Part shown: in pieces, positions 22,220 to 64,000 of the stretch
Position numbering within the stretch: the first letter of the stretch is position 1
Layout: every line of letters starts with the position of its first letter
Source of the DNA: Candidatus Moraniibacteriota bacterium
GTDB lineage: Bacteria > Patescibacteriota > Minisyncoccia > Moranbacterales > UBA1568
Length of the DNA stretch: 64,000 bases
Reading direction: 5' to 3'
Assembly: GCA_028688415.1 (NCBI GenBank)
Contig: JAQTYF010000001.1
Location: forward strand, 208,627 to 272,626
Program-made: the position numbers and the translations under genes
Notes under the pieces: model-generated
What the model saw: only the letters and a program-made list of their open reading frames with translations
What the model was told of the DNA's origin: nothing
Database searches by the model: none

Positions 22220-22230
22220 TTTTAAATATT

Positions 22231-24835: not shown

Positions 24836-24839
24836 TTAT

Positions 24840-44450: not shown

Positions 44451-44461
44451 TAAGAAAAAAT

Positions 44462-45160: not shown

Positions 45161-45472
45161 GAATATCTGCATTCTGTATCTCCTGTCACTTATCTTCACT
45201 CAGTGTAATTGTTTACTCTAGTAAAACAGGATTACACAGGGTGAATTCATTATTATCTGCGTTCTTTTCAACTATCTCTTATCCCTTATTTAGCATCTAT
45301 TATCCCTCCATACCCCTCTGTGGCATGGGTTGTGGTAGTCTCGGAATTGGCGTATAATAAGGGGGTTGTATAGAGCCTTTTTATGATTTCATCTGTAGGA
45401 ATAAAGCAGAAACTGTTTCAGATTGCGGAGATCATCCATCTCCGTATTTTTGGGCATGAAATGGGGGAGGAA

Positions 45473-46735
45473 ATGAGAAAATTTATCGGAAATCTCTCCT
45501 GGTCATTCTTTGGAGGGATAATTGCTTCGGTACTGATGTTTGGAGTAAATGTTGGTATGGGACGGTATTTTGGACCCGAAGAGTATGGGAAATATAATTT
45601 TGTATTGATTCTGAGTCAATTTCTATTAATTTTTATATATCTAGGAACAGATGTTTCAAGTGTGAAATTTCTTTCTAGCGAGAAAGAAATGTCGGACAGG
45701 AAATCGTTTTTTTCGAGTTCGTATTATTTCGTTTTTGTGATGATTCTCTTGTCTTGGTGTGTATATTATTTCGTTCATCAGAAGATTGAGAGTTATTTCC
45801 ATATAGATAGTCAATATCTATTTCTCGCCCTCATCTTAGGATCAGTTCTTGGTATGAAGGGTGTGGTCGATGGATATTTGAGAGCATTCTCTCTCTTTCG
45901 TTTTCAGGCATTTTTGCGTGTTATTGAGGCGACTTTGGTCATTATTTTCCTTTTTTTAATTTTAAAAGTGTTTGGCATAAGGGAATATCAATACTATGTG
46001 TATGCGATTGTAGGAGGAGCCGTCTTGTTTTCGCTTATAACTTTATTTCGATTGAAAGAGAATTTTGGAGTGTTTCGATGGACGTCTTTAAAATTGATGT
46101 TGTCTTATGGAAAAGTTGTTCTTATGGGCGTGGTTTTGGGCGCGGTATTTAATTCGCTTGATAAGATAATTGTTGCAAAATATCTTGGCGTGACACAATT
46201 AGGGGTTTATTCAGCGTATTTTATGACTTCGACTAATCTTATTGCACAAATGACGCAAGTATTCAATAATGTCTTTTTTCCAGCTATCTCTCGAGTAGAT
46301 AATATAGCGTATGTGGCGAAAATAAACACATTAATGAAACAGTTTTTTGTTCCTGGTGGAATTATTTTTTCTTTAGTTTTATATGGGATACTGCTTATTT
46401 TTGGGAAAGCCTATAAGCCAGATGTCTTTTTGGCAATCGGATTTGGATTCTTATCTATTCTTCAAATTATTTTCACCATAAATGCATCAATAATTATGGC
46501 TCTTTCAAAAGAACTACTCAAGAGATACTATTTTTGGTTGTACAGTGTAAGTTTCCTTCATATTGCTTTCTATGGAATTTTTATATATTTCAAATTTGTT
46601 ACGATACCGATTTTGCTCCTATTATTTTTCATAAATTTTTCAGTGATAATATTTATTCAAAAAAATCTTATAAATACCTTTATCAAAGCAAAAAAAAATC
46701 CTCATTCCCAGTTTATTTCTGATATGGTAGAATGA
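45473..46735 (+). CDS. oligosaccharide flippase (Wzx/MOP family)
   Basis: ~12 TM, start preceded by a GGAGG RBS, GRYFGPEEYGKY motif. Confidence 0.7.
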   Translation: MRKFIGNLSWSFFGGIIASVLMFGVNVGMGRYFGPEEYGKYNFVLILSQFLLIFIYLGTDVSSVKFLSSEKEMSDRKSFFSSSYYFVFVMILLSWCVYYFVHQKIESYFHIDSQYLFLALILGSVLGMKGVVDGYLRAFSLFRFQAFLRVIEATLVIIFLFLILKVFGIREYQYYVYAIVGGAVLFSLITLFRLKENFGVFRWTSLKLMLSYGKVVLMGVVLGAVFNSLDKIIVAKYLGVTQLGVYSAYFMTSTNLIAQMTQVFNNVFFPAISRVDNIAYVAKINTLMKQFFVPGGIIFSLVLYGILLIFGKAYKPDVFLAIGFGFLSILQIIFTINASIIMALSKELLKRYYFWLYSVSFLHIAFYGIFIYFKFVTIPILLLLFFINFSVIIFIQKNLINTFIKAKKNPHSQFISDMVE

Positions 46736-46759
46736 GCTTGTTATTTATTATAAACATAA

Positions 46760-47320
46760 ATGAATATGATAAAGAAAAACGTTGAATTGATTCTCAGTGA
46801 AATAAAGACTGTTTTTGAATCATTAGATGAAAATCAGGCTATATTGCTTCGAGATGAAATTTTGAATGCGAATACGATAGTAGTTTGTGGGGCTGGTCGG
46901 GTAGGTATGGCGATACGTGGCTTTGGGATGCGATTAGGACATCTTGGAATGAAAGCCTTTACTCTCGGTGATTCGGTGGTTCCCGGAATCAGCAAAGGTG
47001 ATTTGCTGATTGTTGCATCCGGATCAGGAGAAACTCAAACTATATTTGACCTTGTTGAAATTGGGAAAAAAAATGGTGTACGCATTGCTTTGATAACTGG
47101 TAATCCTGAATCAAGAATGGGGAAACTTGCAGATATTGTAGTGAAAATTACAGCTCCATCAAAAACAAAAGCAGTTGAGGGGTTTATATCGATTCAACCG
47201 ATGACAACCTTAAACGAACAAAGTCTCGGAATATTTTTTGATGCTCTTGTATTAGATCTTATGGAAAAAATGAGAGAAACCCATGATACTATGTGGGCGA
47301 GGCATTCTAATTTGGAATAA
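46760..47320 (+). CDS. SIS-domain sugar-phosphate isomerase (6-phospho-3-hexuloisomerase / KdsD-N-like)
   Basis: Single SIS domain of 186 aa (IVVCGAGRVGMA..., LLIVASGSGET). Confidence 0.6.
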   Translation: MNMIKKNVELILSEIKTVFESLDENQAILLRDEILNANTIVVCGAGRVGMAIRGFGMRLGHLGMKAFTLGDSVVPGISKGDLLIVASGSGETQTIFDLVEIGKKNGVRIALITGNPESRMGKLADIVVKITAPSKTKAVEGFISIQPMTTLNEQSLGIFFDALVLDLMEKMRETHDTMWARHSNLE

Positions 47321-48001
47321 ATGTATACTATGCACGATCACAAACACTGTCAGTTAGCTGCATCAATAATTTGTGGCAATTCTTTCAATCTTGAGTCGGA
47401 TTTGGCTGCTCTTGAAAAAGGGGGAATTGATTATATTCATTTTGATGTGATGGATGGAGTATTTGTTCCACGCTTTGGATTGTTTCCTGAATATTTGAAA
47501 GCTATTCGCTCCAAGACAAATCTTCCGATAGAGGTTCATATGATGGTGCAGGATCCGGAGCCGTATATTCAGGACTTCGTGAATGCTGGAGCGACAATGC
47601 TTACTCCGCACATAGAGCCGCTTATGCATGTTCATCGCACGGTAATGAAGATTAAGAGTGCAGGCGTTCAGGCTGGGTTGGCACTTAATCCCGGAACACC
47701 ACTTTCATCGCTTGATTCTATTTTGGAAGATTTGGATTTGGTAATGCTGATGGCTATCAATCCTGGTATTGTGGGTCACAAACTTATCCCAAGAACCATG
47801 GGGAAAATTGCGGAGTTGCGAAAAAAAATCGATGAAACAGGCAAGGATATTATGATAGAAATTGATGGTGGTGTCACGCCTACGAGTGGGATTGAAATGG
47901 TCAGGGCGGGTGCAAATATGTTGGTGTGTGGTACAGGGACAATTTTTCAGCCACCAGCAAAACTGGATGACAAGATACGAGAATTTCGATTGACATTATA
48001 A
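47321..48001 (+). CDS. ribulose-phosphate 3-epimerase family protein
   Basis: HFDVMDGVFVP and LMAINPG..G motifs align with Rpe. Confidence 0.7.
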   Translation: MYTMHDHKHCQLAASIICGNSFNLESDLAALEKGGIDYIHFDVMDGVFVPRFGLFPEYLKAIRSKTNLPIEVHMMVQDPEPYIQDFVNAGATMLTPHIEPLMHVHRTVMKIKSAGVQAGLALNPGTPLSSLDSILEDLDLVMLMAINPGIVGHKLIPRTMGKIAELRKKIDETGKDIMIEIDGGVTPTSGIEMVRAGANMLVCGTGTIFQPPAKLDDKIREFRLTL

Positions 48002-48018
48002 TTACTAGAAATATTGAT

Positions 48019-49602
48019 ATGGCAGGTGATATGGCATATAAGGTTTTGATTACAACATCTGGTACAGGATCGAGACTCGGTGATATAACAAAATATACGA
48101 ATAAATCTCTCGTGAAAGTCGGTAAAAAACCGGCTATTTCGTACATCATTGAAGCATATCCAAAGAATACTGAATTTGTTATCACCGTCGGATATTTTGG
48201 AAATCAGGTCCGAGATTTTTTGAAACTTGTCTATCCGGAAAAAAACTTCAAATTTGTTGAAGTTGATAAATATGAAGGGAAAGGAAGTAGTTTGGGATAT
48301 TCTATGTTGCAAGCGGCATCTCAATTGCAATGTCCATTTATTTACCATGCTTGCGATACAATTATATCTGGAAAAATACTAAAACCAAAAAAGAATTGGA
48401 TAGGGGGATTTCTCGGGGAGGGTTCCTCTCATTACGCTTCATTTGATGTTGTTGATGGGAAAGTGCAACAGATGTATGACAAAGGAATGATAGATCCTGA
48501 TTTTTTGCATATCGGGTTGATAGGTGTACAAGAATATAAATCTTTTTGGGAAAATTTGAAAGAATTGCATAGGAAAAATCCAACCAACGGTGCTCTCAAT
48601 GACGTTGAAGTAATTAGTAAGATGATAGGACAAGGGAGTGAATTTGGAGTCGTTCCGTTTGAGGAATGGTACGACATCGGCAATGTCGAGAGCTTGCATA
48701 AGGCGCGGGTTGAGATCGAAGATTCGTTTAGGATTCTTGACAAATCAGATGAATCGATTTTTATTTTTGATAAGTTTGTAGTGAAGTTTTTTTATGATGA
48801 GAAAACTGTTGCGCAGCGCGTTGAAAGAGGGAGGCTTCTTAGAGGACTTGCGCCTGAAATTGAGGGATCAACAAAGAATTTTTATCGTTATAAGTATGCA
48901 AACGGAAAATTGTATTCGAAGGTCGCCACCCCGATAGATTTTGGTACATTTTTGCGTTGGTCAAAGAAAAATCTTTGGAAGCCGAATCGGGAGGTTTCCG
49001 ATCAAGAATTTAAAAAAATCTGTTATGATTTTTATTATAAAAAAACAGTGGAGCGAGTAGAAAAGTTTTTAGTTTCACGCAAGGTGAAGGACGCGGAGAT
49101 TGTCATCAATGGTGAAAAAGTTCCTACTATCAAAAAAATGCTCAAGATGATTGATTTTGATTGGCTATGTAATGCAAAGCAAAGTGGGTTTCATGGAGAT
49201 TTCATCCTTGATAATCTTTTGAAAAAAGGTAAGTCAGGGTATGTGCTTTTGGATTGGCGTCAGAACTTCGGAGGGCTTCTGAAGTCGGGGGATATGTATT
49301 ATGATCTTTCGAAGTTAAATCACAATTTGACGGTGAATCATGAAATCGTGAATAATGATTTGTTCAAAATTGAGATAGAAAAGGACGAAGTGACTTGTGA
49401 TATTCATCGGAAAGAGAACCTTGTCCAGTGTCAGAAAGCATTATTTGAGTTTCTTCAAAAAAACGGATATGATACAAAGAAGGTGAAAATATTGACTGCA
49501 TTGATTTGGCTCAATATGTCACCGCTTCATCATCATCCTTTTGATCTTTTTTTGTTTTATTTCGGGAAATTAAATCTCTGGCGCGCGCTCAACGAAAAAT
49601 AG
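48019..49602 (+). CDS. bifunctional sugar-phosphate nucleotidyltransferase (N) / APH-ChoK-like kinase (C)
   Basis: N-terminal LITTSGTGSRLG nucleotidyltransferase motif. C-terminal HGDFILDNLL and LLDWRQ kinase motifs. Confidence 0.6.
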   Translation: MAGDMAYKVLITTSGTGSRLGDITKYTNKSLVKVGKKPAISYIIEAYPKNTEFVITVGYFGNQVRDFLKLVYPEKNFKFVEVDKYEGKGSSLGYSMLQAASQLQCPFIYHACDTIISGKILKPKKNWIGGFLGEGSSHYASFDVVDGKVQQMYDKGMIDPDFLHIGLIGVQEYKSFWENLKELHRKNPTNGALNDVEVISKMIGQGSEFGVVPFEEWYDIGNVESLHKARVEIEDSFRILDKSDESIFIFDKFVVKFFYDEKTVAQRVERGRLLRGLAPEIEGSTKNFYRYKYANGKLYSKVATPIDFGTFLRWSKKNLWKPNREVSDQEFKKICYDFYYKKTVERVEKFLVSRKVKDAEIVINGEKVPTIKKMLKMIDFDWLCNAKQSGFHGDFILDNLLKKGKSGYVLLDWRQNFGGLLKSGDMYYDLSKLNHNLTVNHEIVNNDLFKIEIEKDEVTCDIHRKENLVQCQKALFEFLQKNGYDTKKVKILTALIWLNMSPLHHHPFDLFLFYFGKLNLWRALNEK

Positions 49603-49607
49603 GAACT

Positions 49608-50147
49608 ATGAAAAAGAAAACAATCAAAAATTTCATATTGGATGTCGATGGCGTTTTCACTGATGGTAAATTCTATTACACCATCGATGGTAAGGTGATG
49701 AAAAAATTTGGTCCAGAAGACAATGACGCTCTTTCTCTTTTGAAAGACAGGTTGCATCTCCATGCTATTTCAGGCGATAAGAATGGATTTGCTATTACTA
49801 AAAGAAGGATTGCTGATGATATGAAACTCCCACTAGATCAGGTGAGCACATTTGAACGTATGGAATGGATTCGTGAGCGATTCGACCCAGAGGAGACTAT
49901 TTACATGGGGGATGGTATATTCGATCCGCTCGTTTTTAAATATGTTGCATATAGCATTGCACCAGCTAACGCATTCTATAAGACGAAGGAACAAGCAGAC
50001 TTTGTCACCGAGGCAAGAGGAGGAGAAGGCGCAGTTGCGGAAGCGTGCCTCCATATATTGGAAAAGTTTTTTGATGAATCATTCGATATACATTCGCTCG
50101 ACCTCAAGAATGGATCGGGCGCGTGGACAAATAAAAAGTCAGTATAG
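49608..50147 (+). CDS. HAD-superfamily phosphatase, KdsC-like
   Basis: FILDVDGVFTDGK motif I and GDGIFD motif. Confidence 0.65.
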   Translation: MKKKTIKNFILDVDGVFTDGKFYYTIDGKVMKKFGPEDNDALSLLKDRLHLHAISGDKNGFAITKRRIADDMKLPLDQVSTFERMEWIRERFDPEETIYMGDGIFDPLVFKYVAYSIAPANAFYKTKEQADFVTEARGGEGAVAEACLHILEKFFDESFDIHSLDLKNGSGAWTNKKSV

Positions 50148-50173
50148 GTTTTTTATAAATAAAATTTATTGTA

Positions 50174-51300
50174 TGGAATACATTGAAAGAAAGAAAAGTA
50201 TAATAACAGGAAAAGAAAATCTGGAGCAATTGCATACATTTAAGGATTTTCCGGTTTTCTTTGGTTGTGTTGAATATGGCCCAGAGAAAGACATTAAGGC
50301 TGATATGAGTTGGGCAATATGCCCGGAATCGGGTGTGATTCAGCTGGATAAGCTCATCCCACTTGATATCCTCTATCAGGAGCAACATGTTGACGGAACT
50401 GGTCCGACATGGGAACGGTATTACCATGATTTTGCCGATTATATAAAGAAGCAACCTTCGACGAATATCCTTGAGATCGGGGGCGGTGCAGGGAAGCTTG
50501 CCGACATTTTCACCGGCATTACTAAAGAAACGTCTTGGACACTCGTTGAACCCAATCCGTTGCACCCGGGGAATGATCGGGTCAAGATTACACGCGCTTT
50601 TTTTGATGAAAATTTCAAGTATGAGGGCGATGTGGATACGGTGGTTTTTTCACAGGTGATGGAACATGCCTACGATCCGAATCAATTCGTGGAATCCATA
50701 GCGAAATTCCTGAAACCAGGTCAAAAACTCATTTGTGCCTATCCGAATTTGAAGTTGTGGCTTGAAAATAAATACACGAACGCTATAAACTTCGAACACA
50801 CTATGTTTTTGACGGACTACTTCGTCGATTATCTCTTTGTTAAGCACGGATTTGTCATAAAGGACAAGTACTTCTACAAGGATCACAGTATATTCTATGT
50901 CGCGGAAAAGCTGGGACAGCCGGCAGTCGCAACCTTCGAAAATCAATACATGGAGTACAAAAAAATATTTAATGATTTCATTCAATATCACCAGGATATC
51001 GTGAGGAATTTGAACGAGAAAATATCCGATTTTGACGGTGAAGTGTATCTCTTTGGTGCACACATTTTTGCACAGTACCTTTTTGAGTTTGGATTAGACC
51101 AAACAAAAATTGTTTCACTGCTTGATAATTCTGGTTTGAAAAAAGAAAAACGCCTTTACGGTACAAATTTGATTGTTCATGGACCGGAGATTCTTCAAGG
51201 TAAAGGGAAAGTCGGTGTGGTTTTGAAAGTCGGTATATATCGGGATGAAATATTGAAACAACTGAAGGAAATAAATCCTGAAGTTATTATTTTTGAATAG
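50174..51300 (+). CDS. class I SAM-dependent (sugar C-methyltransferase-like) methyltransferase
   Basis: ILEIGGGAGKL motif I plus a C-terminal C-methyltransferase-like domain. The listed ORF extension from 49852 overlaps the previous gene and was rejected. Confidence 0.6.
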
Positions 51301-52435: not shown

Positions 52436-52450
52436 TTTTAAAAAAAATCT

Positions 52451-53179: not shown

Positions 53180-53186
53180 ATGATAT

Positions 53187-54002: not shown

Positions 54003-54003
54003 A

Positions 54004-57082: not shown

Positions 57083-57084
57083 AC

Positions 57085-58173
57085 TTAGTGCGTACCGACG
57101 CAGGTGATACCAGCCTCGGGGTGTTCAAATGATTGTACGTCCTCTAACTTGCTATCGCTGAACCATTTTTCGATTTCTTCAACATAGTAATAGTTACTTT
57201 TTGGAGTCGCGAGAACATCGAAAGCATCGTTGAGCTTCATATTGAAAGGAAAATTCTCGTAGTAGGCAAAGGGGAGTTTCGTAGCAAGCGATTTGAATCC
57301 TATCATCTTGAGGAGTTTCCCGAAAAGATTGATGAGATGAACAATAAATCCAGGAATGTAGCAAAGTTTGAAGAGAATCGGCTTAGGGAGTTTTTTCAAG
57401 AAATCACGAAGCGGTTCATAGAAATAGAGGGCACGAGCATTGTTCCGTCTGTTGTAAACCCAAATAAGCATCTTTCCACCTGCTCTAAGAGTTTTTGGAA
57501 GACGGGAAAATCCATCTTGCGGTTTGGGGAGGTGGTGAAGCACTCCGATCGAATAGGCAATATCGAAAGTATCAGTAAACGGCATATGATAGATGTCGGC
57601 CTGGACAATACAGATGTTCGGAATATCTTTGGTCATTTCGTAGGCGACTCCGACAGTTTCTCCGAGATCTGTTCCAAATGAAATCTCGGTTTCTGAGAGT
57701 CCTGCCCACTTCGTGAAGCGCCCAGACCCGCATCCTATATCAAGTGTCTTTTTTCCTCTCAGATTCTCTTCTTTCAAAAATGGTGAGAGAAAATGAAAGA
57801 AATTGCTTTTCTCGTAATTATTCTCTTTATAGATGTACTTCCATTCGTAGGCGAAACTTTCAGCTGTTTTCTTCTGGTGCTTCCAGAAAGCGTCAAGGTC
57901 AGGAATATTGTCGATAGCTTTCTGCCACTCAGCGTGTATATTTTCGGGTAATTTTTCTTTCCAAGTTTTGAAAAAGTCTTGATGAGTTTGGAGGAGGTTC
58001 GTCTTCAGCTCGTCTATGAGTATTCTAGGAATACCGTTTATGATCGGATACCAAGAACCTGCTGTTGTGACGAGGCCGGAAATTACGTGCGATCCTGCTT
58101 CTTCGAAGACAATAATGTCGAATGGATTATTTGAGACCGGATCAGAGAGATACGAGAGATGATTTCGTCGCAT
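57085..58173 (-). CDS. class I SAM-dependent methyltransferase
   Basis: LDIGCGSGRF motif I. Confidence 0.6.
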   Translation of the reverse strand: MRRNHLSYLSDPVSNNPFDIIVFEEAGSHVISGLVTTAGSWYPIINGIPRILIDELKTNLLQTHQDFFKTWKEKLPENIHAEWQKAIDNIPDLDAFWKHQKKTAESFAYEWKYIYKENNYEKSNFFHFLSPFLKEENLRGKKTLDIGCGSGRFTKWAGLSETEISFGTDLGETVGVAYEMTKDIPNICIVQADIYHMPFTDTFDIAYSIGVLHHLPKPQDGFSRLPKTLRAGGKMLIWVYNRRNNARALYFYEPLRDFLKKLPKPILFKLCYIPGFIVHLINLFGKLLKMIGFKSLATKLPFAYYENFPFNMKLNDAFDVLATPKSNYYYVEEIEKWFSDSKLEDVQSFEHPEAGITCVGTH

Positions 58174-58208
58174 GGTTTCTAAATTTATTGATTAATTTAA
58201 TTATTATA

Positions 58209-60101
58209 TCATGCCGGAAAGTATTCCTCAAACCAGAGTTCGAGGGTGAGAAGTGCCCAAATATGAGGTGAGAAGTTTATATTCGTATTGCAGTGTTGGT
58301 CGAGAATGTGTTGGATGTATTCTTTTTTGAGAAGACCGTCTTTTACGAGACGACCATCAAGAAGTTTCTCTCTCGTATAGTCTTTGAGTTCATTGCGAAA
58401 CCAATGGGCAATCGGAATACCAAATCCCATCTTTGGTCGAAACATCACCTCATCGGGGATGAGGCCTCGTAACGCTTCTTTGAGAATATACTTTTTGTTA
58501 TTGAGACCCTTGAGCTTCAAGTGAAATGGTATTTGTGCTGTAAGTTCGAGGAATTCATGATCCAAAAAAGGGGAGCGTCCTTCGAGAGATACTGCCATTG
58601 TGGCAATATCGACTTTTGTCATAAGATCTTCTGGAAGATATGTTATAAAATCAGCATAGACAGCTTGTTCTGTCCGATTTTTCGAACCTGATTTTCTGAA
58701 TTCTCGAGCAATGATGTCGTATGTATCCTGATCCCAGACTTTTTTCTTGAACTCATCCGTATAAAGCGCGGACTTTTGTTCGTTTGTGAAATAGGCCGTG
58801 TAAGAAAGGTAGCGCCTGCGATAATCATCAGAAATACTTTTTGAGAAACGATGGAGTCGATCGAAAAATGTATTTTTTATACTGTTTTTGAGAAAGCGTG
58901 TTATCGGTTCTCCAAATAATTTATTGAGAATATTAAAGTGATCTAGGAGAGTGGATATTTGAAAAGCACTATACCTACTATACCCAGCAAAGTTTTCATC
59001 GCCCCCATCACCATTGAGAGCGACTGTGACGTGTGCTCGGGTAAGCTTGGCAACATAATAGGTCGGAAGAGCGCTGGAATCGGCATAAGGTTCCTCGTAT
59101 TGCTTGACGAGCATCGGAAGGAGATGGATAGCATCAGGCTTTACGATGAATTCGGTATGATCCGTTTTGAACTTGTCCGCAATTATTTTTGCGTATTTCA
59201 GTTCGTTGAATTTTTCTTCATCAAAGCCTATGGAAAATGTTTTTATCGGAGTAGGGGAATTCTTGGCCATCAGGGCAACGATGGCACTGGAATCAATACC
59301 GCCAGAGAGGAATGCACCGATAGGAACATCAGAAATCATACGAAGTCTGACAGACTCATCGAGTTTATCAATGACGCGTTTCTTCCATTCTTCTTCAGAA
59401 AGATCAAGTTTTTTGGAATAGTCGAGTTTCCAGTATGACTCGTTCTCTACTTTTTTTGTTTTGAGATCGATGAAGAGATAGTGGGCTGGCTGGAGCTTCT
59501 TGATACCGACGAATCCAGTGAGTGGTGCTGGAACGTACTGAAGCGTCAAATAATGATGTATAGCGACGTAGTCAGGCTCCTTGTGGTATTCGGGCTGAGT
59601 CAGGATGGCTTTGAGCTCTGAAGCGAATAGAAAGACATTCTCGTCTATGTAATATTTGAAGGGCTTTTTGCCAACTCGGTCCCGAGTACAAAAGAGTGTT
59701 TGTTCTTGTTCATCGTAGATAGCAAAAGCAAACATACCTCTCAGATGCTTCACACATTCTTTTCCGTATTTGTCATAGAGAGCGAGAATCACTTCTGTAT
59801 CGGAATGAGAAACAAAAGTGTACCCTTCTTTTTCAAGTAAATCTCTCTTTTCTTGGAAGTTATAGATTTCTCCATTGAAAACAATTTCGTACCGATCCAT
59901 ATAGCGCATCGGCTGATGACCGAGTGGAGAGAGGTCGATGATAGAGAGTCTCCTATGACCGAGACCTACTTTGTTATCAGGAGAAATATATGCACCGCCA
60001 TCATCGGGACCACGATGTTTGATAGCATTATTCATCGTCTCAATTTCTTGAGGCGTGATGTCTTTTTTGTTGAATGAGATTTTACCAGTGATTCCGCACA
60101 T
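58209..60101 (-). CDS. asnB: asparagine synthase (glutamine-hydrolysing) family amidotransferase
   Basis: N-terminal MCGITG Ntn nucleophile, SGGIDSS PP-loop, ~630 aa. Confidence 0.85.
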   Translation of the reverse strand: MCGITGKISFNKKDITPQEIETMNNAIKHRGPDDGGAYISPDNKVGLGHRRLSIIDLSPLGHQPMRYMDRYEIVFNGEIYNFQEKRDLLEKEGYTFVSHSDTEVILALYDKYGKECVKHLRGMFAFAIYDEQEQTLFCTRDRVGKKPFKYYIDENVFLFASELKAILTQPEYHKEPDYVAIHHYLTLQYVPAPLTGFVGIKKLQPAHYLFIDLKTKKVENESYWKLDYSKKLDLSEEEWKKRVIDKLDESVRLRMISDVPIGAFLSGGIDSSAIVALMAKNSPTPIKTFSIGFDEEKFNELKYAKIIADKFKTDHTEFIVKPDAIHLLPMLVKQYEEPYADSSALPTYYVAKLTRAHVTVALNGDGGDENFAGYSRYSAFQISTLLDHFNILNKLFGEPITRFLKNSIKNTFFDRLHRFSKSISDDYRRRYLSYTAYFTNEQKSALYTDEFKKKVWDQDTYDIIAREFRKSGSKNRTEQAVYADFITYLPEDLMTKVDIATMAVSLEGRSPFLDHEFLELTAQIPFHLKLKGLNNKKYILKEALRGLIPDEVMFRPKMGFGIPIAHWFRNELKDYTREKLLDGRLVKDGLLKKEYIQHILDQHCNTNINFSPHIWALLTLELWFEEYFPA

Positions 60102-60149
60102 AAGACAGTCAACAAATAACAATTAACAGAAAGTAATCAAAAAAGTACG

Positions 60150-61328
60150 TTATTTCTTATTATCGAGGAGTTTGGAGAAAATTTCAAGGTATTGATTGAT
60201 TGCGTGGTCCCAAGAAAATTTATTTTTTACTTCTTGGTAAGCATTTTGACCAAAGAGGATTCGTTTCTCAGGATGATCGATCAAGTCAGTAAGTTTTTCT
60301 CTGAGTTGCTCGATATTCTTTGGTTCGATAAGATAACCATCGCCGTTTCCAGAAATAACTTCTGACGTACCACCCACATTGGTAGCGATTATAGCTTTCT
60401 GGCAAAGCGCTGATTCAGTGACAGATGTCGGGAGGCCTTCGGTATAGCTTGGATTGACGACGATATCGGCAGTTTTCAGAACACTAATAGCTTCATCAAA
60501 GGGGAGGTTGCCGAAAAAAACTATTTGATCTTCGAGATTATAGGTAGTTGCCATTTTTTTTAATCTCATTTCTTCTGGGCCACCGCCAATAATGAAGGTG
60601 ACGATGTTATTTCGCTTCATTTGAGCGATGGCGGTGATGAGATCATGTGCCCCTTTGCCATCGATCAGTCGTCCGATAAATGCGATGATGGTTTTGTCTT
60701 GATATTTTTCCTTCAAGTCTCGGTGAAGTATGCATTTTTCTATTCCTGCGATATTAGCACCGCGATAAATCACACTACAATCATTTCTTCCAGAAAGTTT
60801 CCGTACGAAATCAGCTGAAGCAGAGGAATTGCCAATGACACAATTGGCCGATCGGAGAATACAACGTCCGAATGTCCAATCGTAGAATTTGGCAAGTAGA
60901 GTTTTTATACTTCCATTGAATTGAGCAAAATCGGAACCATGCTCGATGTGGACAAGGGGAATATTATTTTTCCGTGCGTATCGAAGAGCCATCAGAGAAG
61001 GGAAAAAGAATCGGGTACGAGAAATGATGATATCGTAATTTTCATCAGAAAGAGAATTCCATCTTTGCCAAAAATTCGTTTGCCAGAATTTTGGTATCGG
61101 ATAATTGTGAATGGGTTCGAAAGCGGAGAAACGGATTATTTTGACATCGTTATGATGAATTTCGGTTTCTGGAGCATCCTCTGGCAGACGTGGGGTGAAA
61201 ACAGAAAGAGTCACATTTCTTTGTGAAAGATGTTTGTTAAATTCATCGCTATGACTCTCGAGTCCACCGATATGTGGTGGATAGAATGGCGAGAAGATAA
61301 GGATTTTTTTTACTGGATAATTTTCCAT
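60150..61328 (-). CDS. glycosyltransferase family 4
   Basis: NPSYTEGLPTSVTESALCQKAIIATNVGG motif. Confidence 0.75.
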   Translation of the reverse strand: MENYPVKKILIFSPFYPPHIGGLESHSDEFNKHLSQRNVTLSVFTPRLPEDAPETEIHHNDVKIIRFSAFEPIHNYPIPKFWQTNFWQRWNSLSDENYDIIISRTRFFFPSLMALRYARKNNIPLVHIEHGSDFAQFNGSIKTLLAKFYDWTFGRCILRSANCVIGNSSASADFVRKLSGRNDCSVIYRGANIAGIEKCILHRDLKEKYQDKTIIAFIGRLIDGKGAHDLITAIAQMKRNNIVTFIIGGGPEEMRLKKMATTYNLEDQIVFFGNLPFDEAISVLKTADIVVNPSYTEGLPTSVTESALCQKAIIATNVGGTSEVISGNGDGYLIEPKNIEQLREKLTDLIDHPEKRILFGQNAYQEVKNKFSWDHAINQYLEIFSKLLDNKK

Positions 61329-63388
61329 ATATAAATATGATTTGCTTCATCAGAATAGACTTTTTCGAAATAATCAGATTGTTGATTAAAAATAATATGT
61401 TTTTCTTTGTTTTCGAATTTTTTCATATATGGGCGATCGACATAGGGATTTTTTTCACTCGGAGCGGCATAGTAAATATAGTAGGATTTATTCTTACTTA
61501 CCATTTCTTCTGTCGTGTTTTTTGCTTGTTCTATCAGTTCTATCTGACTGAGAATATTTCGTGCCACTTGGACGTTTGATGTCACGTTTTCTGTGTCGAT
61601 ATTTTCGACGGTTGTCTTGAGTGATTCAATAGCTTTCTTCTGATCCGCTTCAGAAAACGGAATTTGTCGACTTTTAAATTCACTCTCGAATACCGTCTCA
61701 TCGAATAAGAAATTTGGGTCCCCGACTTTGATAACTGATGATCCTGAGAAAAAACTCAGCAATCGGCCACTTTCGACGGTGAAGATGGTTCGATTATTGG
61801 GAAGATTTGTATTGATCCACTCAGCAGAAACGAGCTGTGGTTCGGTAATCATATATTTTTTGAGTGTATTGATATATATGGCCGCAGCGATATTGGCAGA
61901 AAATCCGAGAATGATAATCCAGAGAAAAAATTGATTTTTTCCTATAGGAAGAGAGAATAAAGGAATCAGAAAAAAGAGCGCTATCGTTCCGGCGAATACC
62001 CAAGCCCGATCCGGAAGGAGAGCGATACCTGTAAGACGTGGGAGAATCTCTGCGATGATGAAAAAAACGAGAAATATGCATGTGAGTACCTTACCTTCTT
62101 GAGAAAAAAGAAATGATCGTACAATTTTGTTTTTGATAAAATAGAGTAGTGTCACAAAGGTAAGAAGAAGGGGTGGTCCGATGTAAAAAAGATAATATTT
62201 GGCGACACCGAAGAAATCGCCCCAGCCCATCTGATTGCCATCGATATTCACATAATACTGCGGGAAAAGGAGATTCGGTTGTGAATTCAGGAGAGCAGAG
62301 AGTAGTGATTCGATGTGAGAAAAGATGAAAAGAATCGGGCTGTAAAAAGCTGGCAAAGTGATAAAGAGAAGCAGGAATGTGGTGAGTCTGTTTTCTCTGA
62401 CTTTCTGAAAGATTTCTCGTCGGTAATTCCAGAGAGAAAAAAGAATCCAGAGAGCAAGTGGAATAGCGAGTGCTTCGTGGTAAAAAAAACTGAAAAAAAG
62501 AACGGCACCGCCAAGAAAGTAAAAGAAGGTATTTCCAGTAATCAGCGAGTACGTAAGAAAAGCAAAAAAGAAAAATAGTCCAATATTCGCGAGAGCTTGC
62601 GGAATAGGGAGAGTGAGATAAATAACGGTAATGCCGCTTGCAAAAGGAAAGAAAAAAACGATTACTTTTTGTAATGGATGTGAGAATTTTTGTGCAAGTA
62701 GCGCTGTAGGGAAGATGAGAAAGAGAAGAAGTGCTGGAAGAACATATTTGAAATAAGCATAAAAATCAATATGCGCTCCTTGGGTGAAGATGTGTGTGAG
62801 AGATGAGAAAAGCGGACGATGTCCATTGAGTGTTGTTATGGTTTCTGTCTGAAGTTGTGTGCGATATTCAGTTATCCAATAATAGGGGTCGAGGTCTGGA
62901 AGTGGATAATAGGCGGTGATAATGCTGATAACGACGGTAATGTAGAGAATGAATGGTGGGAGAAAATTCTTCGAGAAAAATGTGCCCAACAAATCCTTAT
63001 TATTCAATGGAAATTCTTGGATACTTTCGAGATTTCTTTTTTTATGAAAAAAATATATTCTAGCAATGATGATGAAGATAAGCAAAGCAGTAATGAAAGG
63101 GAGATAAGGAATTAGTGTCTTCAATTCCGTGTATTCGATCGTGAGCAGGAAAGGGAGTAAAAAGAGGGAAAAAACGAGAGCGATATTTATAAATTCGAGA
63201 AGAGAAAACTTTTTTTTCAAGAAATATTGAATGAGAAATGCTAAATTTATTCCTGGGAGAAAAAGAATAAAAGAAAGTTCTATGAAAGATCGAATAATCC
63301 TTGTCGCTGTGAAAGTATCAAGTGGGAGAAAAAAAATAACACAAAAAAGAAAAAGAAAAACAAGATTTATTCGAATAATCCAAGGCAT
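61310..63388 (-). CDS. large polytopic membrane protein, GT-C/YfhO-like or polymerase-like
   Basis: 692 aa with more than 14 TM segments and a C-terminal soluble domain. Sits next to DUF2304 and GT2, the arrangement of three-component membrane glycosylation systems. Confidence 0.45.
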   Translation of the reverse strand: MPWIIRINLVFLFLFCVIFFLPLDTFTATRIIRSFIELSFILFLPGINLAFLIQYFLKKKFSLLEFINIALVFSLFLLPFLLTIEYTELKTLIPYLPFITALLIFIIIARIYFFHKKRNLESIQEFPLNNKDLLGTFFSKNFLPPFILYITVVISIITAYYPLPDLDPYYWITEYRTQLQTETITTLNGHRPLFSSLTHIFTQGAHIDFYAYFKYVLPALLLFLIFPTALLAQKFSHPLQKVIVFFFPFASGITVIYLTLPIPQALANIGLFFFFAFLTYSLITGNTFFYFLGGAVLFFSFFYHEALAIPLALWILFSLWNYRREIFQKVRENRLTTFLLLFITLPAFYSPILFIFSHIESLLSALLNSQPNLLFPQYYVNIDGNQMGWGDFFGVAKYYLFYIGPPLLLTFVTLLYFIKNKIVRSFLFSQEGKVLTCIFLVFFIIAEILPRLTGIALLPDRAWVFAGTIALFFLIPLFSLPIGKNQFFLWIIILGFSANIAAAIYINTLKKYMITEPQLVSAEWINTNLPNNRTIFTVESGRLLSFFSGSSVIKVGDPNFLFDETVFESEFKSRQIPFSEADQKKAIESLKTTVENIDTENVTSNVQVARNILSQIELIEQAKNTTEEMVSKNKSYYIYYAAPSEKNPYVDRPYMKKFENKEKHIIFNQQSDYFEKVYSDEANHIYIWKIIQ

Positions 63389-63391
63389 AAT

Positions 63392-63787
63392 TTAGTTCTC
63401 TGTTTTTTGAATTCCTTCGTCTGACAAGGCGCGATTGCGTGTAACGACAGAAATCTGCTGTTCGAGATGTTCGATGGCGGAGAGGAGTTTGAACATCATA
63501 AGGAAAACAAGGATAAATCCAGTGAGAATAACGGCATTGATATTGCCTTCGATACCGATGATATTGGCCAATGTATTACTGAAAGTAGGAAAAAGAACGA
63601 TAAATACCATACCTCCCCAGACAATAAGTCTCGTCCCTACTTTGAGAAGCGTTTGATTGCCTTTTCCTCGAAGAAAATTGCTTACTCCCTGATAGATCAT
63701 CACTCCAGAGATGATGAGGATGATGATTTGATAAAACTGAAGACTATTGAAATCCATAGTTGTGTATATTAAGAGATAATATTCCAA
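63392..63787 (-). CDS. DUF2304 family membrane protein
   Basis: ~131 aa, 4 TM, the typical partner of a GtrB-like GT2. Confidence 0.55.
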   Translation of the reverse strand: MEYYLLIYTTMDFNSLQFYQIIILIISGVMIYQGVSNFLRGKGNQTLLKVGTRLIVWGGMVFIVLFPTFSNTLANIIGIEGNINAVILTGFILVFLMMFKLLSAIEHLEQQISVVTRNRALSDEGIQKTEN

Positions 63788-64000
63788 ATGATTTTGTAGA
63801 GTGTCTTGATACCGTTTATGAAGCCTTGTTTTTGAATTTTTCCCATCGAATACTCCGTATAGCGGACTTCGATAGGCACCTCTGTATATTTTAGCTTATA
63901 AATGTAGATTTCGCGAATAACTTCGCTGTCGTACTCATAACGGTCGGTTTTCGTATTGATGAGTTCGGAAGCGTGACGAGAATAGGCTCGAAATCCTGAT
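63768..64000 (-). CDS. glycosyltransferase family 2 (GtrB/DPM1-like), C-terminal fragment running off the window
   Basis: Minus-strand frame reads ...SGFRAYSRHASELINTKTDRYEYDSEVIREIYIYKLKYTEVPIEVRYTEYSMGKIQKQGFINGIKTLYKIIWNIIS then stop. This is a typical GT2 C-terminal region. The start lies beyond 64000. Confidence 0.5.

What the first reader, a model, noticed from the sequence alone, without database searches (positions are those of the whole stretch)
45473..64000. Glycan biosynthesis cluster unusually rich in methyltransferases, with an AsnB-like amidotransferase and a fused nucleotidyltransferase-kinase
About 18 kb contain a Wzx flippase, SIS isomerase, Rpe-family epimerase, a fused NDP-sugar pyrophosphorylase/APH-like kinase (salvage-type sugar activation), a KdsC-like phosphatase, one C-methyltransferase-like and four further SAM methyltransferases, one GT2 and four GT4 transferases, an AsnB-family amidotransferase (likely amidating a uronic or acidic sugar), and a GT2-DUF2304-large membrane protein trio resembling GtrABC/CsbB-YfhO-type surface glycosylation. 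Together these predict a heavily O-/C-methylated, possibly amidated surface polysaccharide or glycoconjugate. The strand switch at 55.1 kb suggests two converging operons.
Basis: partly seen in the sequence, partly recalled or inferred. Interest (0 to 1): 0.55.

Follow-up and report, generated by a model that had tools for sequence, protein, structure and literature searches.

The report
Surface-glycan cluster with unknown sugar-activation cassette
This is a real cell-surface sugar-chain gene cluster from an uncultured, tiny-genome bacterium (Candidatus Moranbacteria), and it contains a four-gene cassette, found in at least 210 species but never studied, that probably makes an unusual activated sugar.

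Summary
The gene list is essentially right. Profile searches confirm Wzx, a SIS isomerase, Rpe, a fused nucleotidyltransferase–kinase, a KdsC-type phosphatase, GT2, AsnB, and a GT2/DUF2304/membrane-protein trio on two convergent operons. Two counts are off. There are 4 methyltransferases in the region, not 5, and 3 GT4s, not 4. The 376-aa ORF is an unannotated family.

The window comes from a Candidatus Moranbacteria (CPR) MAG. The locus extends about 6 kb upstream and at least 8 kb past the window end, where GalE and a UDP-glucose dehydrogenase lie.

The main result is the cassette SIS–Rpe–NT/kinase–HAD.
- The fused enzyme occurs in 210 species.
- In 83 fetched loci it sits next to either SIS+Rpe (49 loci) or a GatZ-like protein plus a PMI-like cupin (29 loci), never both.
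- Natural fusions join the GatZ-like, cupin and TylF-methyltransferase proteins to the NT-kinase.
- The cassette Rpe is a distinct subfamily with altered active-site loops.

I infer a de novo, not salvage, route to a nucleotide-activated rare sugar. It follows the isomerase–kinase–phosphatase–transferase logic of NDP-heptose synthesis but uses unrelated enzymes. The sugar's identity is unresolved. I found no literature on the cassette.

The parts
39789..40451 (+). SAM methyltransferase (MT0), probable left edge of the locus.
   Evidence: PF08241, E 2.1e-13. Gene call in L001.
40500..41225 (-). 241-aa protein of unknown function, conserved beside the PMT gene in 6 related Moranbacteria loci.
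   Evidence: Cluster 18. Only a sub-threshold Pfam hit (PF22919 ATP-synt_VA_C, 24.4 bits against a cut-off of 24.7).
41249..42745 (-). PMT/ArnT-type GT-C membrane glycosyltransferase.
   Evidence: PF02366/PF13231 precomputed. 9 hydrophobic segments. Homologues in 8 related loci.
42866..43714 (+). Short-chain dehydrogenase-family NDP-sugar epimerase/reductase (282 aa).
   Evidence: PF01370, E 1e-44. GalE/RmlD-like but below cut-offs. Precedes Wzx-SIS-Rpe in relatives.
43878..45160 (+). AbiE-type toxin-antitoxin pair, inserted between the SDR gene and Wzx. Not part of the glycan pathway.
   Evidence: PF08843 AbiEii, E 1.9e-21. Absent at this position in relatives.
45383..46735 (+). Wzx-type flippase.
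   Evidence: PF01943, E 2.6e-20. 10 hydrophobic segments.
46760..47320 (+). Cassette gene 1: SIS-domain sugar-phosphate isomerase of the 6-phospho-3-hexuloisomerase (PHI/HxlB) family.
   Evidence: TIGR03127, 187.7 bits > 160. E 1.9e-35 to B. subtilis YckF, PDB 1m3s. PHI motifs kept in 38 cassette copies.
47321..48001 (+). Cassette gene 2: Rpe-family epimerase of a distinct subfamily.
   Evidence: TIGR01163, 218.2 vs 212.6. E 2.6e-51 to PDB 7sbj. Loop changes VPN>VPR and NPGFGGQ>NPGIvGHKL are conserved in at least 80% of 43 copies.
48019..49602 (+). Cassette gene 3: fused nucleotidyltransferase (residues ~1-235) and APH/choline-kinase-fold kinase (residues ~236-527).
   Evidence: NT domain resembles LicC/IPCT/RmlA/MurU. 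(kinase fold). 637 representative clusters at E <= 1e-30. 210 species.
49608..50147 (+). Cassette gene 4: KdsC/YrbI-type HAD phosphatase.
   Evidence: TIGR01670, E 1.1e-20, 74 bits (below the cut-off of 107). Adjacent to the NT-kinase in 65-73 of ~80 loci.
50173..51300 (+). MT1: 375-aa SAM methyltransferase, the tailoring enzyme most often linked to the cassette.
   Evidence: PF13489, E 1.7e-11. PF08484 only at E 0.015. Present in 42-47 loci of both cassette types.
51305..52435 (+). U380: 376-aa soluble protein of an unannotated family. Possible cassette-specific transferase or tailoring enzyme.
   Evidence: No family. 84 'hypothetical' homologues. In 22 loci, 18 of them with MT1. Never found together with the c10 GT (p 0.003).
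52451..53179 (+). MT2: SAM methyltransferase.
   Evidence: PF13489, E 7.7e-10.
53187..54002 (+). GT2 glycosyltransferase.
   Evidence: PF00535, E 1.6e-38.
54004..55104 (+). GT4 glycosyltransferase (a). Last gene of the + operon.
   Evidence: PF13692/PF00534, E ~1e-15.
55101..55982 (-). MT3: SAM methyltransferase. Last gene of the - operon.
   Evidence: PF08241, E 1.8e-13.
55949..57082 (-). GT4 glycosyltransferase (b).
   Evidence: PF00534, E 1.4e-37.
57085..58173 (-). MT4: SAM methyltransferase with a Trm112-like N-terminus.
   Evidence: PF08241, E 2e-14. NF038101, E 3.7e-5, residues 1-55.
58209..60101 (-). AsnB-family glutamine-dependent amidotransferase (630 aa from the MCG start).
   Evidence: PF00733, E 4.9e-102. 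TIGR01536, 498 > 267. TIGR03108, 634 < 817. Gene call of 630 aa.
60150..61328 (-). GT4 glycosyltransferase (c).
   Evidence: PF00534, E 1.2e-39.
61310..63388 (-). U692: polytopic membrane protein (at least 11 hydrophobic segments plus a ~180-aa soluble C-terminus). Candidate GT-C-like transferase of the trio.
   Evidence: No Pfam/NCBIfam hit. Hydropathy. Homologues beside DUF2304 in L030-L032.
63392..63757 (-). DUF2304 small membrane protein.
   Evidence: PF10066, E 3.3e-12. 121-aa gene call.
63769..64000 (-). 3' part of a 228-aa PpgS-like GT2 (polyprenyl-phosphate glycosyl synthase). The gene continues past the window end.
   Evidence: NF058614, E 1e-7 on the fragment. 153.7 bits on the full protein from L087.

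Best explanation
The region is the core of a surface-glycan biosynthesis locus of roughly 32 kb in a Candidatus Moranbacteria (CPR/Patescibacteria) genome.

**First operon.** It opens with a Wzx flippase, followed by a tightly packed four-gene cassette:
- a PHI-type SIS isomerase
- an Rpe-type epimerase
- a fused nucleotidyltransferase / APH-fold kinase
- a KdsC-type HAD phosphatase

**Proposed mechanism.** I propose that this cassette makes a nucleotide-activated rare sugar de novo.
1. The isomerase and epimerase remodel a central ketose phosphate, most simply fructose-6-P.
2. The kinase and the phosphatase together move the phosphate from the terminal carbon to the carbon to be activated. 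They do the job of a mutase, as in NDP-heptose synthesis (GmhA, HddA/HldE, GmhB, HddC).
3. The transferase domain adds the nucleotide.
4. The sugar is then methylated (MT1 and other methyltransferases) and built into a glycan by the GT2/GT4 enzymes and exported by Wzx.

**Second operon (convergent).** It supplies more GT4s, two methyltransferases, an AsnB-type amidotransferase, and a trio made of a PpgS-like GT2, a DUF2304 protein and a polytopic membrane protein. The amidotransferase probably makes a uronamide from UDP-GlcA. The trio probably carries out lipid-linked glycosylation outside the membrane.

**Shown:** gene families, folds, synteny, the two alternative front ends, and the fusions.

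**Inferred:** substrates, order of steps, which nucleotide is used, the identity of the sugar, and the glycan's acceptor.
For: **Gene families and folds:**

**Origin:** the contig is a Moranbacteria MAG, GCA_028699965.1.

**How widespread the NT-kinase is**
- 210 species in the genome collection.
- 637 clusters at 50% identity with E <= 1e-30, almost all full length.
- A HAD gene lies beside it in 65-73 of ~80 loci.

**Two alternative front ends**
- tblastn over all 83 loci gives SIS+Rpe in 49, GatZ-like+cupin in 29, both in 0 and neither in 5. Four of those five are cut at the kinase gene.
- On the clustering counts (43 and 25 of 80 loci), zero overlap has a hypergeometric p of 5e-12.
- The two types are intermixed in the NT-kinase tree inside the CPR/Bacteroidota clade.
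- No alignment column of the NT-kinase separates them.
- The same MT1 and U380 families follow both types.
- Together these points argue for one shared product.

**Natural fusions:** GatZ-like+NT-kinase (P0356, P0419), cupin+NT-kinase (P0386, P0470) and TylF-type O-methyltransferase+NT-kinase (P0068).

**Front-end enzymes**
- The cupin matches the PMI domain of bifunctional ManC.
- The GatZ-like protein keeps GatZ's Asp-His, Glu/Asp and His metal and catalytic residues (residues taken from PMC11907403).
- The cassette Rpe keeps the metal ligands but has conserved loop substitutions that are absent from E. coli Rpe, AlsE and PDB 7sbj. It is therefore not a stray housekeeping gene.

**Glycan context**
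- Wzx, GT2 and GT4s in the window.
- Wzz, Ugd, ManC and ManB flank the cassette in Marinomonas colpomeniae.
- Ugd and GalE lie just beyond the window end.
Against: - There is no biochemical evidence for any member, and I found no literature.
- The transferase domain's nearest solved relatives are phospho-alcohol cytidylyltransferases (LicC, IPCT). The kinase's nearest neighbours include choline/ethanolamine kinases at TM ~0.5. A CDP-linked non-anomeric product is therefore not excluded.
- If PHI and Rpe keep their native chemistry, the SIS+Rpe version has no obvious aldose-ketose isomerase. The other version has one, the cupin.
- The conserved extra basic residues in the cassette Rpe loops (Arg, His-Lys) are unexplained. 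They could mean a bisphosphate or nucleotide-linked substrate, and so a different order of steps.
- The HAD scores below the KdsC cut-off.
- The tree is neighbour-joining without support values. ORF clustering was heuristic. Several MAG taxon labels look unreliable.
Confidence: 0.6

Rival explanations
1. The cassette is a LicCA-like system. The kinase phosphorylates a small alcohol, polyol or ketose at a non-anomeric hydroxyl, and the LicC/IPCT-like domain makes a CDP-linked head group. That head group is transferred as a phospho-substituent (like phosphocholine, or like CDP-ribitol, CDP-glycerol or CDP-6-glucitol) rather than as a glycosyl unit. The sugar-phosphate enzymes and the phosphatase make the head group.
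For: - The best solved relatives of the NT domain are LicC (E 2.7e-8), glucose-1-P cytidylyltransferase and CTP:inositol-1-P cytidylyltransferase.
- The kinase's fold neighbours include ethanolamine and choline kinases.
- Some sources call homologues 'choline kinase'.
- CDP-6-D-fructose/glucitol in C. jejuni capsules is a precedent (PMC10918830, listed).
Against: - No LicD, LicB or CDP-alcohol phosphotransferase family appears among the window genes or the recurrent neighbour families.
- There is no PF01633 hit.
- The recurrent neighbour is a GT-B-like glycosyltransferase (c10).
- The cupin partner is PMI-like, and PMI makes an aldose 6-phosphate.
- A direct cytidylyl transfer to a sugar 6-phosphate would need neither kinase nor phosphatase.
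Confidence: 0.2
2. The fused enzyme salvages a free sugar from the host or the environment (like AmgK-MurU, NahK or Fkp). The neighbouring SIS and Rpe genes are ordinary central-metabolism genes (RuMP/pentose-phosphate) that merely lie nearby.
For: - APH-fold anomeric kinases paired with NTP_transferases are known salvage pairs. MurU is a weak hit (E 8.3e-6; PDB 4y7t).
- CPR bacteria are scavengers.
- SIS and Rpe both pass the curated cut-offs of the housekeeping models.
Against: - The order SIS-Rpe-NT/kinase-HAD is kept, often with overlapping genes, in 49 loci. These include Bacteroidota, which presumably have their own Rpe (not checked here).
- In 29 loci, SIS+Rpe is exactly replaced by GatZ-like+cupin.
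- Those replacement proteins are found fused to the NT-kinase.
- The cassette Rpe is a separate subfamily.
- No hexulose-phosphate synthase partner appears among the window genes or the recurrent families.
- A phosphatase has no role in pure salvage.
Confidence: 0.1
3. The methyltransferases, or the locus as a whole, serve a non-glycan product such as a small-molecule natural product or protein/lipid methylation. The glycosyltransferases would then be incidental.
For: All four methyltransferases hit only generic class-I models. The best named hits (UbiG, CmoB, PrmA, BioC) are non-glycan enzymes.
Against: - Every such hit is far below its curated cut-off, for example UbiG 51.5 vs 103 and CmoB 42 vs 209-275.
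- The methyltransferases are interleaved with GT2/GT4, Wzx, AsnB and polyprenyl-phosphate GT genes in operons.
- MT1, MT3, MT4 and GT4b recur together with the cassette in other species.
- TylF-type sugar O-methyltransferases occur beside the NT-kinase in 13 loci and fused to it in P0068.
Confidence: 0.05

Closest known systems
NDP-heptose biosynthesis: GmhA / HddA or HldE / GmhB / HddC (GDP- or ADP-glycero-manno-heptose)
   Same: It has the same four-step logic. A SIS isomerase acts on a ketose phosphate, a kinase adds a second phosphate, a HAD phosphatase removes the terminal one, and a nucleotidyltransferase activates the sugar. HldE is also a fused kinase-transferase. These are established pathways, cited from my own knowledge. 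GmhB and ADP-heptose are covered in PMC8204981 (listed).
   Different: - None of the proteins is orthologous.
- The SIS protein is PHI-type: GmhA models score 23-25 bits against cut-offs of 209-265.
- The kinase has an APH fold, not GHMP or PfkB.
- The HAD is KdsC/YrbI-type, not GmhB.
- There is an extra epimerase (Rpe-like or GatZ-like) at the front.
- The substrate and product are unknown.
Bifunctional PMI-GMP (ManC/AlgA type II) plus phosphomannomutase ManB
   Same: In the alternative version of the cassette, a PMI-like cupin works with, and is sometimes fused to, an NTP_transferase. This parallels F6P > Man6P > Man1P > GDP-Man.
   Different: The mutase step is replaced by kinase plus phosphatase. 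A GatZ-like epimerase precedes the cupin. This window uses PHI+Rpe instead of the cupin and the GatZ-like protein.
AmgK-MurU, NahK and LicA-LicC (LicCA): an APH-fold small-molecule kinase paired with an NTP_transferase
   Same: The same two folds are combined. LicC is the closest solved relative of the N-terminal domain.
   Different: - Those are salvage or uptake systems with no sugar-phosphate-remodelling enzymes and no phosphatase.
- All scores are far below the family cut-offs (MurU 25.8 vs 250).
- There are no LicB or LicD partners.
RuMP pathway HxlA-HxlB, and E. coli GatZ/KbaZ fructose-6-P 4-epimerase
   Same: The SIS protein is a true PHI-family member. The alternative front-end protein keeps the GatZ catalytic residues, and GatZ converts F6P to tagatose-6-P (PMC11907403).
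   Different: No hexulose-phosphate synthase is present. The GatZ-like protein is only 16-22% identical to GatZ and differs at the residues that PMC11907403 links to C3-OH recognition (K279>N, E44>A). The context is glycan synthesis, not C1 or galactitol metabolism.
Mycobacterial PpgS (Rv3631) / Rv3632 / GT-C, and GtrABC-type three-component glycosylation
   Same: A GT2 polyprenyl-phosphate glycosyl synthase lies next to a DUF2304 small membrane protein and a large polytopic protein. The Rv3632 and GT-C partnership is from my own knowledge.
   Different: The GT2 scores 153.7 bits against the PpgS cut-off of 370. The 692-aa protein matches no GT-C or YfhO family. The sugar and the acceptor are unknown.
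AsnB-like amidotransferases of polysaccharide loci (e.g. WbpS; XrtA/PEP-CTERM-associated TIGR03108)
   Same: Both domains are present at full length with an N-terminal Cys. The best NCBIfam hit is TIGR03108 (634 bits). A Ugd gene lies in the same locus.
   Different: The score is below the TIGR03108 cut-off (817). No XrtA/PEP-CTERM system was seen. The substrate is untested.

Membership tests
6-phospho-3-hexuloisomerase (HxlB/PHI, TIGR03127) | Score above the curated cut-off, and homology to solved PHIs | tested here: met
   187.7 bits vs 160. E 1.9e-35 to YckF 1m3s, 1e-17 to MJ1247 1jeo. The motifs GAGRxG, GSGSGET, QPMxxLxEQ and HxNLE are kept in 38 cassette copies.
6-phospho-3-hexuloisomerase (HxlB/PHI, TIGR03127) | Works with a hexulose-phosphate synthase (HxlA) in a RuMP operon | tested here: not met
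   None of the window ORFs scanned hits an HPS/OMP-decarboxylase family. No such family appears among the recurrent neighbours in 80 loci.
Ribulose-phosphate 3-epimerase (TIGR01163) | Score above the cut-off and conserved metal/catalytic His-Asp-His-Asp | tested here: met
   218.2 vs 212.6 (marginal). HFDVMDG, VHmMv and EIDGG are conserved.
Ribulose-phosphate 3-epimerase (TIGR01163) | Canonical active-site loops (VPN; NPGFGGQxF; AGSAIF), as in E. coli Rpe, AlsE and PDB 7sbj | tested here: not met
   Replaced by VPR, NPGIvGHKL and CGtstIf in at least 80% of 43 cassette copies. The structural role of these loops is from memory, not tested here.
LicC-LicA (LicCA) phosphocholine activation | Choline-kinase family domain, plus LicB/LicD partners | tested here: not met
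   No PF01633 hit. Only an APH-fold resemblance. No LicD or LicB among the cluster genes. The LicC resemblance of the NT domain is met.
NDP-heptose pathway enzymes (GmhA, HddA/HldE, GmhB, HddC) | Orthology of each enzyme to the pathway's families | tested here: not met
   GmhA models score 23-25 bits vs 209-265. The kinase has an APH fold. The HAD's best hit is KdsC, not GmhB. It works like this pathway but is not a member.
AmgK-MurU MurNAc/GlcNAc salvage | MurU-equivalog transferase | tested here: not met
   NF045761 scores 25.8 bits vs a cut-off of 250.
KdsC/YrbI HAD phosphatase (TIGR01670) | Score above the subfamily cut-off | tested here: inconclusive
   74.2 bits vs 106.95. It is the best hit over the full length, and the Marinomonas copy behaves the same way.
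APH/choline-kinase-like (eukaryotic-like) small-molecule kinase | Bilobal kinase fold with the HxDxxxxN catalytic loop and a downstream Asp | tested here: met
   The model has pLDDT 93.7. Foldseek hits APH(2''), ethanolamine/choline kinase, GlcN kinase, MTR kinase and maltokinase at prob 1.0 and TM ~0.5. H392, G393, D394, N399 and D412-W413-R414 are invariant. PF01636 is present in homologues.
NDP-hexose C-methyltransferase (TylC3/TcaB9 type) for MT1 | PF08421 zinc domain plus SAM domain plus PF08484 C-terminal domain | tested here: not met
   The SAM domain hits at E 1.7e-11. PF08484 hits only at E 0.015 (15.5 bits vs 23.5). There is no PF08421 hit. No PDB C-methyltransferase was hit.
GT4 glycosyltransferase for the 376-aa ORF at 51305-52435 | Glycos_transf_1 / Glyco_transf_4 domains | tested here: not met
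   No hit even at E <= 1. The homologues carry no such domain.
AsnB-type glutamine-dependent amidotransferase | N-terminal Cys nucleophile, plus GATase and Asn_synthase domains | tested here: met
   The protein starts MCGITG. PF13537, PF13522 and PF00733 hit. TIGR01536 scores 498 vs 267.
PpgS / DUF2304 / GT-C three-component glycosylation | PpgS-equivalog GT2, a DUF2304 partner and a recognisable GT-C | tested here: inconclusive
   The GT2 scores 153.7 vs 370. DUF2304 is met. The 692-aa protein is polytopic but belongs to no family.
GatZ/KbaZ C4-epimerase, for the alternative front-end protein (not present in this window) | Asp87-His88, Glu171 and His257 metal/catalytic set; Lys279/Glu44/Cys20 signature (PMC11907403) | tested here: inconclusive
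   D-H, E (or D) and H are conserved. K279>N, E44>A and C20>M/S differ. The Pfam hit is 24 bits vs 26.7 for the stand-alone proteins and 32.5 in fusion P0419.

The most novel reading that the evidence does not exclude
The cassette is an undescribed de novo route to a nucleotide-activated rare hexose.

- In one version, a PHI-type isomerase and a specialised Rpe-type epimerase together achieve a net C4 epimerisation of fructose-6-P through a 3-keto-hexulose-6-P intermediate. 3-Hexulose-6-P is ribulose-5-P extended by one carbon, so its C4 occupies the position that Rpe epimerises.
- That reaches the same tagatose/talose-series intermediate that the alternative GatZ-like enzyme makes in one step.
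- An APH-fold kinase and a KdsC-type phosphatase then replace a mutase ahead of the nucleotidyl transfer.

If this is right, many 'hxlB' and 'rpe' genes counted as RuMP or pentose-phosphate genes in CPR genome reconstructions are really glycan genes.
Probability: 0.2. Interest if true: 0.75.

Novelty: new variant of a known kind. Interest (0 to 1): 0.5.

Why it matters
- Nothing is known experimentally about the surface glycans of CPR/Patescibacteria, yet these epibionts depend on cell-surface contact with their hosts.
- A conserved cassette found in 210 species gives a concrete, testable entry point. It is small enough to reconstitute in vitro, and it also occurs in cultured Marinomonas and Aliiglaciecola strains.
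- It would add a new sugar nucleotide, and a new example of non-orthologous replacement, to bacterial glycobiology. The replacement takes two forms: PHI+Rpe versus GatZ-like+cupin, and kinase+phosphatase versus a mutase.
- It also warns that hxlB and rpe hits in reduced genomes need not mean RuMP or pentose-phosphate metabolism.
- As a plain glycan cluster, the finding is ordinary.

Tried and rejected
1. **Naming the kinase's substrate from structure.** Foldseek against the PDB gave only generic APH-fold neighbours (TM ~0.5, 10-16% identity). The full-length model's hits were all to the transferase domain. The afdb50 library was unavailable.
2. **PDB sequence and profile searches of the kinase domain, the GatZ-like protein and MT1.** No informative hits.
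3. **Literature.** Seven searches combining hexuloisomerase, nucleotidyltransferase, polysaccharide, Patescibacteria, CPR, GatZ, F6P 4-epimerase, anomeric kinase, tagatose-6-P and APH fusion found nothing on the cassette.
4. **Looking for carriers with known glycan structures.**
   - Named carriers (Marinomonas colpomeniae, Ruthia magnifica, Aliiglaciecola lipolytica, Sulfurimonas) have no structure that I know of.
   - There are no plasmid copies.
5. **Testing whether the two front-end types feed different kinases.** No discriminating alignment column was found, so I rejected 'two different sugars' as the default.
6. **Considered and rejected for lack of enzymes.**
   - Kdo/sialic-type ulosonic acid synthesis: no KdsA/NeuB.
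   - MeOPN-type phosphoramidate: wrong kinase family.
   - CDP-ribitol/arabinitol: no reductase in the cassette.
7. **Testing whether U380 is related to the c10 GT.** hhalign probability 0.5%, so they are unrelated.

Full report
**Observation.** ORF listing shows ten + strand genes from 45383 to 55104, meeting eight − strand genes that run from the window end down to 55101.

- Wzx
- a SIS protein
- Rpe
- a 527-aa protein with an N-terminal NTP_transferase
- a KdsC-like HAD
- one GT2
- AsnB (the true start is MCGITG, giving 630 aa)
- DUF2304
- a truncated GT2 at the window edge

Two counts are off.
- There are four methyltransferases inside the range. A fifth lies upstream at 39789-40451.
- There are three GT4s.

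Other corrections:
- The 376-aa ORF at 51305-52435 matches no family, even at E ≤ 1. All 84 of its homologues are 'hypothetical'.
- 'C-methyltransferase-like' for MT1 rests only on a sub-threshold PF08484 hit (E 0.015).
- The 692-aa protein has no family but has at least 11 hydrophobic segments and a soluble tail of about 180 aa.

**Origin and extent.** An exact-match look-up places the window on contig JAQVTP010000002.1 of GCA_028699965.1, annotated as Candidatus Moranbacteria.
- Glycan genes start near 39.8 kb: a methyltransferase, a conserved unknown, a PMT-type GT-C and an SDR epimerase.
- An AbiE toxin-antitoxin pair is inserted between the SDR gene and Wzx. It is absent at that spot in relatives.
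- Past the window end the contig carries the rest of the PpgS-like GT2, GalE (412 bits > 262), an ArnC/PgfS-like GT2, a UDP-glucose 6-dehydrogenase, a four-helix-bundle protein and another GT4.
- The locus is therefore about 32 kb. It contains a source of uronic acid for the AsnB-type amidotransferase.

**The fused enzyme.**
- The N-terminal domain's closest solved relatives are LicC (E 2.7e-8), glucose-1-P cytidylyltransferase, CTP:inositol-1-P cytidylyltransferase and MurU.
- The C-terminal domain has no PDB sequence match. It carries an invariant HGD…N…DWR.
- Its model (pLDDT 93.7) matches APH(2''), ethanolamine/choline kinases, glucosamine kinase, methylthioribose kinase, maltokinase and fructosamine-3-kinase at probability 1.0. 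TM is only about 0.5 and identity 10-16%.
- The fold is confirmed. The substrate class is not.

**A conserved cassette.**
- The fusion has thousands of full-length homologues. It has 637 representative clusters at E ≤ 1e-30. It occurs in 210 species of the genome collection.
- Most carriers are CPR. Others include Bacteroidota, Geobacter/Desulfuromonadaceae, Wolinella, Arcobacter, Sulfurimonas, Ruthia magnifica, Aliiglaciecola lipolytica and the isolate Marinomonas colpomeniae.
- I fetched 80 loci and compared them by tblastn and all-against-all clustering.
- The KdsC-type HAD is adjacent in 65-73 loci.

The front end comes in two forms.

| Front end | Loci (of 83) |
|---|---|
| SIS+Rpe, as in this window | 49 |
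| ~385-aa class-II-aldolase/GatZ-like protein plus ~115-aa PMI-like cupin | 29 |
| Both | 0 |
| Neither | 5 |

- Of the five loci with neither, four are contigs cut at the kinase gene.
- On the clustering counts (43 and 25 of 80 loci), zero overlap has a hypergeometric p of 5e-12.
- Three short 'unknown' ORFs at contig edges proved to be Rpe fragments.

Several results suggest both forms feed the same enzyme with the same product.
- In a neighbour-joining tree of the fused enzyme, the non-CPR clade is all of the second type. Inside the CPR/Bacteroidota clade the two types are intermixed (no support values).
- No alignment column separates the two types.
- The same MT1 and U380 families follow both.

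**Fusions.** Among library representatives with extra length:
- P0356 and P0419 are GatZ-like+NT-kinase.
- P0386 and P0470 are cupin+NT-kinase.
- P0068 is a TylF-type O-methyltransferase+NT-kinase.

These tie the alternative front-end enzymes, and a sugar O-methyltransferase, to the same pathway.

**The front-end enzymes.**
- The window's SIS protein passes the PHI equivalog cut-off. It matches B. subtilis YckF at E 1.9e-35 over essentially its full length. PHI motifs are kept across 38 cassette copies.
- The Rpe scores higher against bona fide Rpe structures (E 2.6e-51 to 7sbj) than against AlsE (E 5.2e-32), and it keeps the metal ligands.
- However, 43 cassette copies share substitutions absent from E. 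coli Rpe, AlsE and 7sbj: VPN→VPR, NPGFGGQxF→NPGIvGHKL and AGSAIF→CGtstIf. It is therefore a dedicated subfamily. From memory, these loops line or cap the active site, and the new basic residues hint at an extra anionic group on the substrate.
- The GatZ-like protein keeps the Asp-His, Glu/Asp and His residues that PMC11907403 assigns to GatZ catalysis. It differs at the positions that paper links to C3-OH recognition.
- The cupin's best matches are the PMI domains of bifunctional ManC.
- In Marinomonas the cassette sits in an O-antigen-type locus with Wzz, Ugd, ManC and ManB.

**Mechanism (inferred).** An isomerase and an epimerase acting on a ketose phosphate, a kinase, a terminal-phosphate phosphatase and a nucleotidyltransferase together reproduce the logic of GDP-/ADP-heptose synthesis. 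They use unrelated protein families. The cupin version parallels PMI-GMP plus a mutase, with kinase+phosphatase replacing the mutase.

I therefore read the cassette as a de novo route to an activated rare sugar, not as salvage.

The sugar's identity is open.
- If each family keeps its native chemistry, GatZ-like gives tagatose-6-P from F6P.
- PHI followed by an Rpe-type epimerisation next to the 3-keto group, then PHI again, would also give tagatose-6-P. This convergence is my favoured but weakly supported idea.
- A C3-epimer series (allulose/allose/altrose) is the main alternative.
- Unexplained points:
  - The PHI+Rpe version has no aldose-ketose isomerase.
  - The transferase domain resembles phospho-alcohol cytidylyltransferases.
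  - The cassette Rpe has extra basic residues in its active-site loops.

**Downstream genes.**
- MT1 follows the cassette in 42-47 loci.
- Next comes either U380 (22 loci) or a GT-B/GT90-like transferase (16 loci), never both (p 0.003). The two are unrelated in sequence. U380 may therefore be an alternative transferase, but this is only suggestive.
- A stand-alone paralogue of the transferase domain occurs in 17 loci, and a TylF-type methyltransferase in 13.
- MT3, GT4b and MT4 recur with the cassette in 8-12 loci.

**Comparison and novelty.**
- As a glycan cluster, this is a new member of a known kind.
- The cassette is a new variant of a known kind. The pathway logic is known, but the enzyme set is undescribed, the front ends are interchangeable and the product is unknown.
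- All carriers are annotated 'hypothetical', 'phosphotransferase' or 'NDP-sugar pyrophosphorylase'.
- Seven literature searches found nothing. This is absence of evidence within an incomplete library.

**Caveats.**
- There is no experiment behind any functional claim.
- ORF clustering was heuristic. Recoded lineages such as Gracilibacteria (L033) and GC-rich loci such as L068 and L082 were handled poorly until re-checked by tblastn.
- Several TPA MAG titles ('uncultured Bdellovibrionales', 'Gammaproteobacteria') sit on sequences 72-84% identical to the Moranbacteria protein, so their taxon labels are doubtful.

Noticed in passing
window 17921-25805 (+): A low-GC (31-35%) defence island. It holds a DUF5655 protein, an EcoRI-type adenine methyltransferase (E 1.6e-145), a GmrSD_N+HNH nuclease, a HerA/DUF87 ATPase and three unknown ORFs.
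   Followed up: partly
window 43878-45160 (+): An AbiEii toxin and a 190-aa upstream ORF sit between the SDR epimerase and Wzx. Related Moranbacteria loci have SDR-Wzx-SIS contiguous, so the toxin-antitoxin pair looks like an insertion into the glycan locus.
   Followed up: partly
window 32923-33900, 38392-39444 and 34268-37417: Two Fic-domain proteins, one with a RhuM domain, and a 1049-aa LCAT/PGAP1-like alpha/beta-hydrolase protein lie just upstream of the glycan locus.
   Followed up: no
window 57085-58173 (-): Methyltransferase MT4 has a Trm112-like zinc-ribbon hit at its N-terminus (NF038101, E 3.7e-5, residues 1-55). This would be an activator-like domain fused to a methyltransferase.
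   Followed up: no
L087 1-7620 (contig beyond window position 64000): The locus continues past the window end with the full PpgS-like GT2, GalE, an ArnC/PgfS-like GT2, a UDP-glucose 6-dehydrogenase, a four-helix-bundle '23S rRNA IVP' protein, a GT4, a 299-aa unknown and an LPG_synthase_TM protein.
   Followed up: partly
window 47321-48001, and the Rpe copies of L004-L064: The cassette Rpe proteins share loop substitutions that add Arg and His-Lys (VPR; NPGIvGHKL). These are not seen in E. coli Rpe, AlsE or PDB 7sbj. They may indicate an extra anionic group on the substrate.
   Followed up: partly
L070 8813-9637, L078 4077-4901 and six other loci: A 274-aa protein with no Pfam/NCBIfam family lies between the GatZ-like and cupin genes in 8 non-CPR loci, plus L068 and L082 by tblastn. 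Its function is unknown.
   Followed up: partly
L007, L018, L021, L027, L030-L032, L035, L040, L041, L043 and others: A stand-alone ~240-aa paralogue of the transferase domain sits next to the fused NT-kinase in 17 loci. In L047 it appears fused to about 190 further residues. It is not clear why two transferases would be needed.
   Followed up: no
L004, L006, L008, L010, L021 and others (record titles): Several TPA MAGs titled 'uncultured Bdellovibrionales', 'Gammaproteobacteria' or 'Saccharibacteria' carry NT-kinases that are 55-84% identical to the Moranbacteria protein and have CPR-like synteny. Their taxon labels are probably unreliable.
   Followed up: no
P0413 (library protein, 724 aa): An NT-kinase homologue has an N-terminal GIY-YIG + NUMOD3 homing-endonuclease module. 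This may be a mobile-element insertion or a gene-calling fusion.
   Followed up: no
window 8746-8818 and 12815-12885: Two tRNA genes are the only Rfam matches in the window. GC skew is positive over almost the whole window, regardless of gene strand.
   Followed up: no
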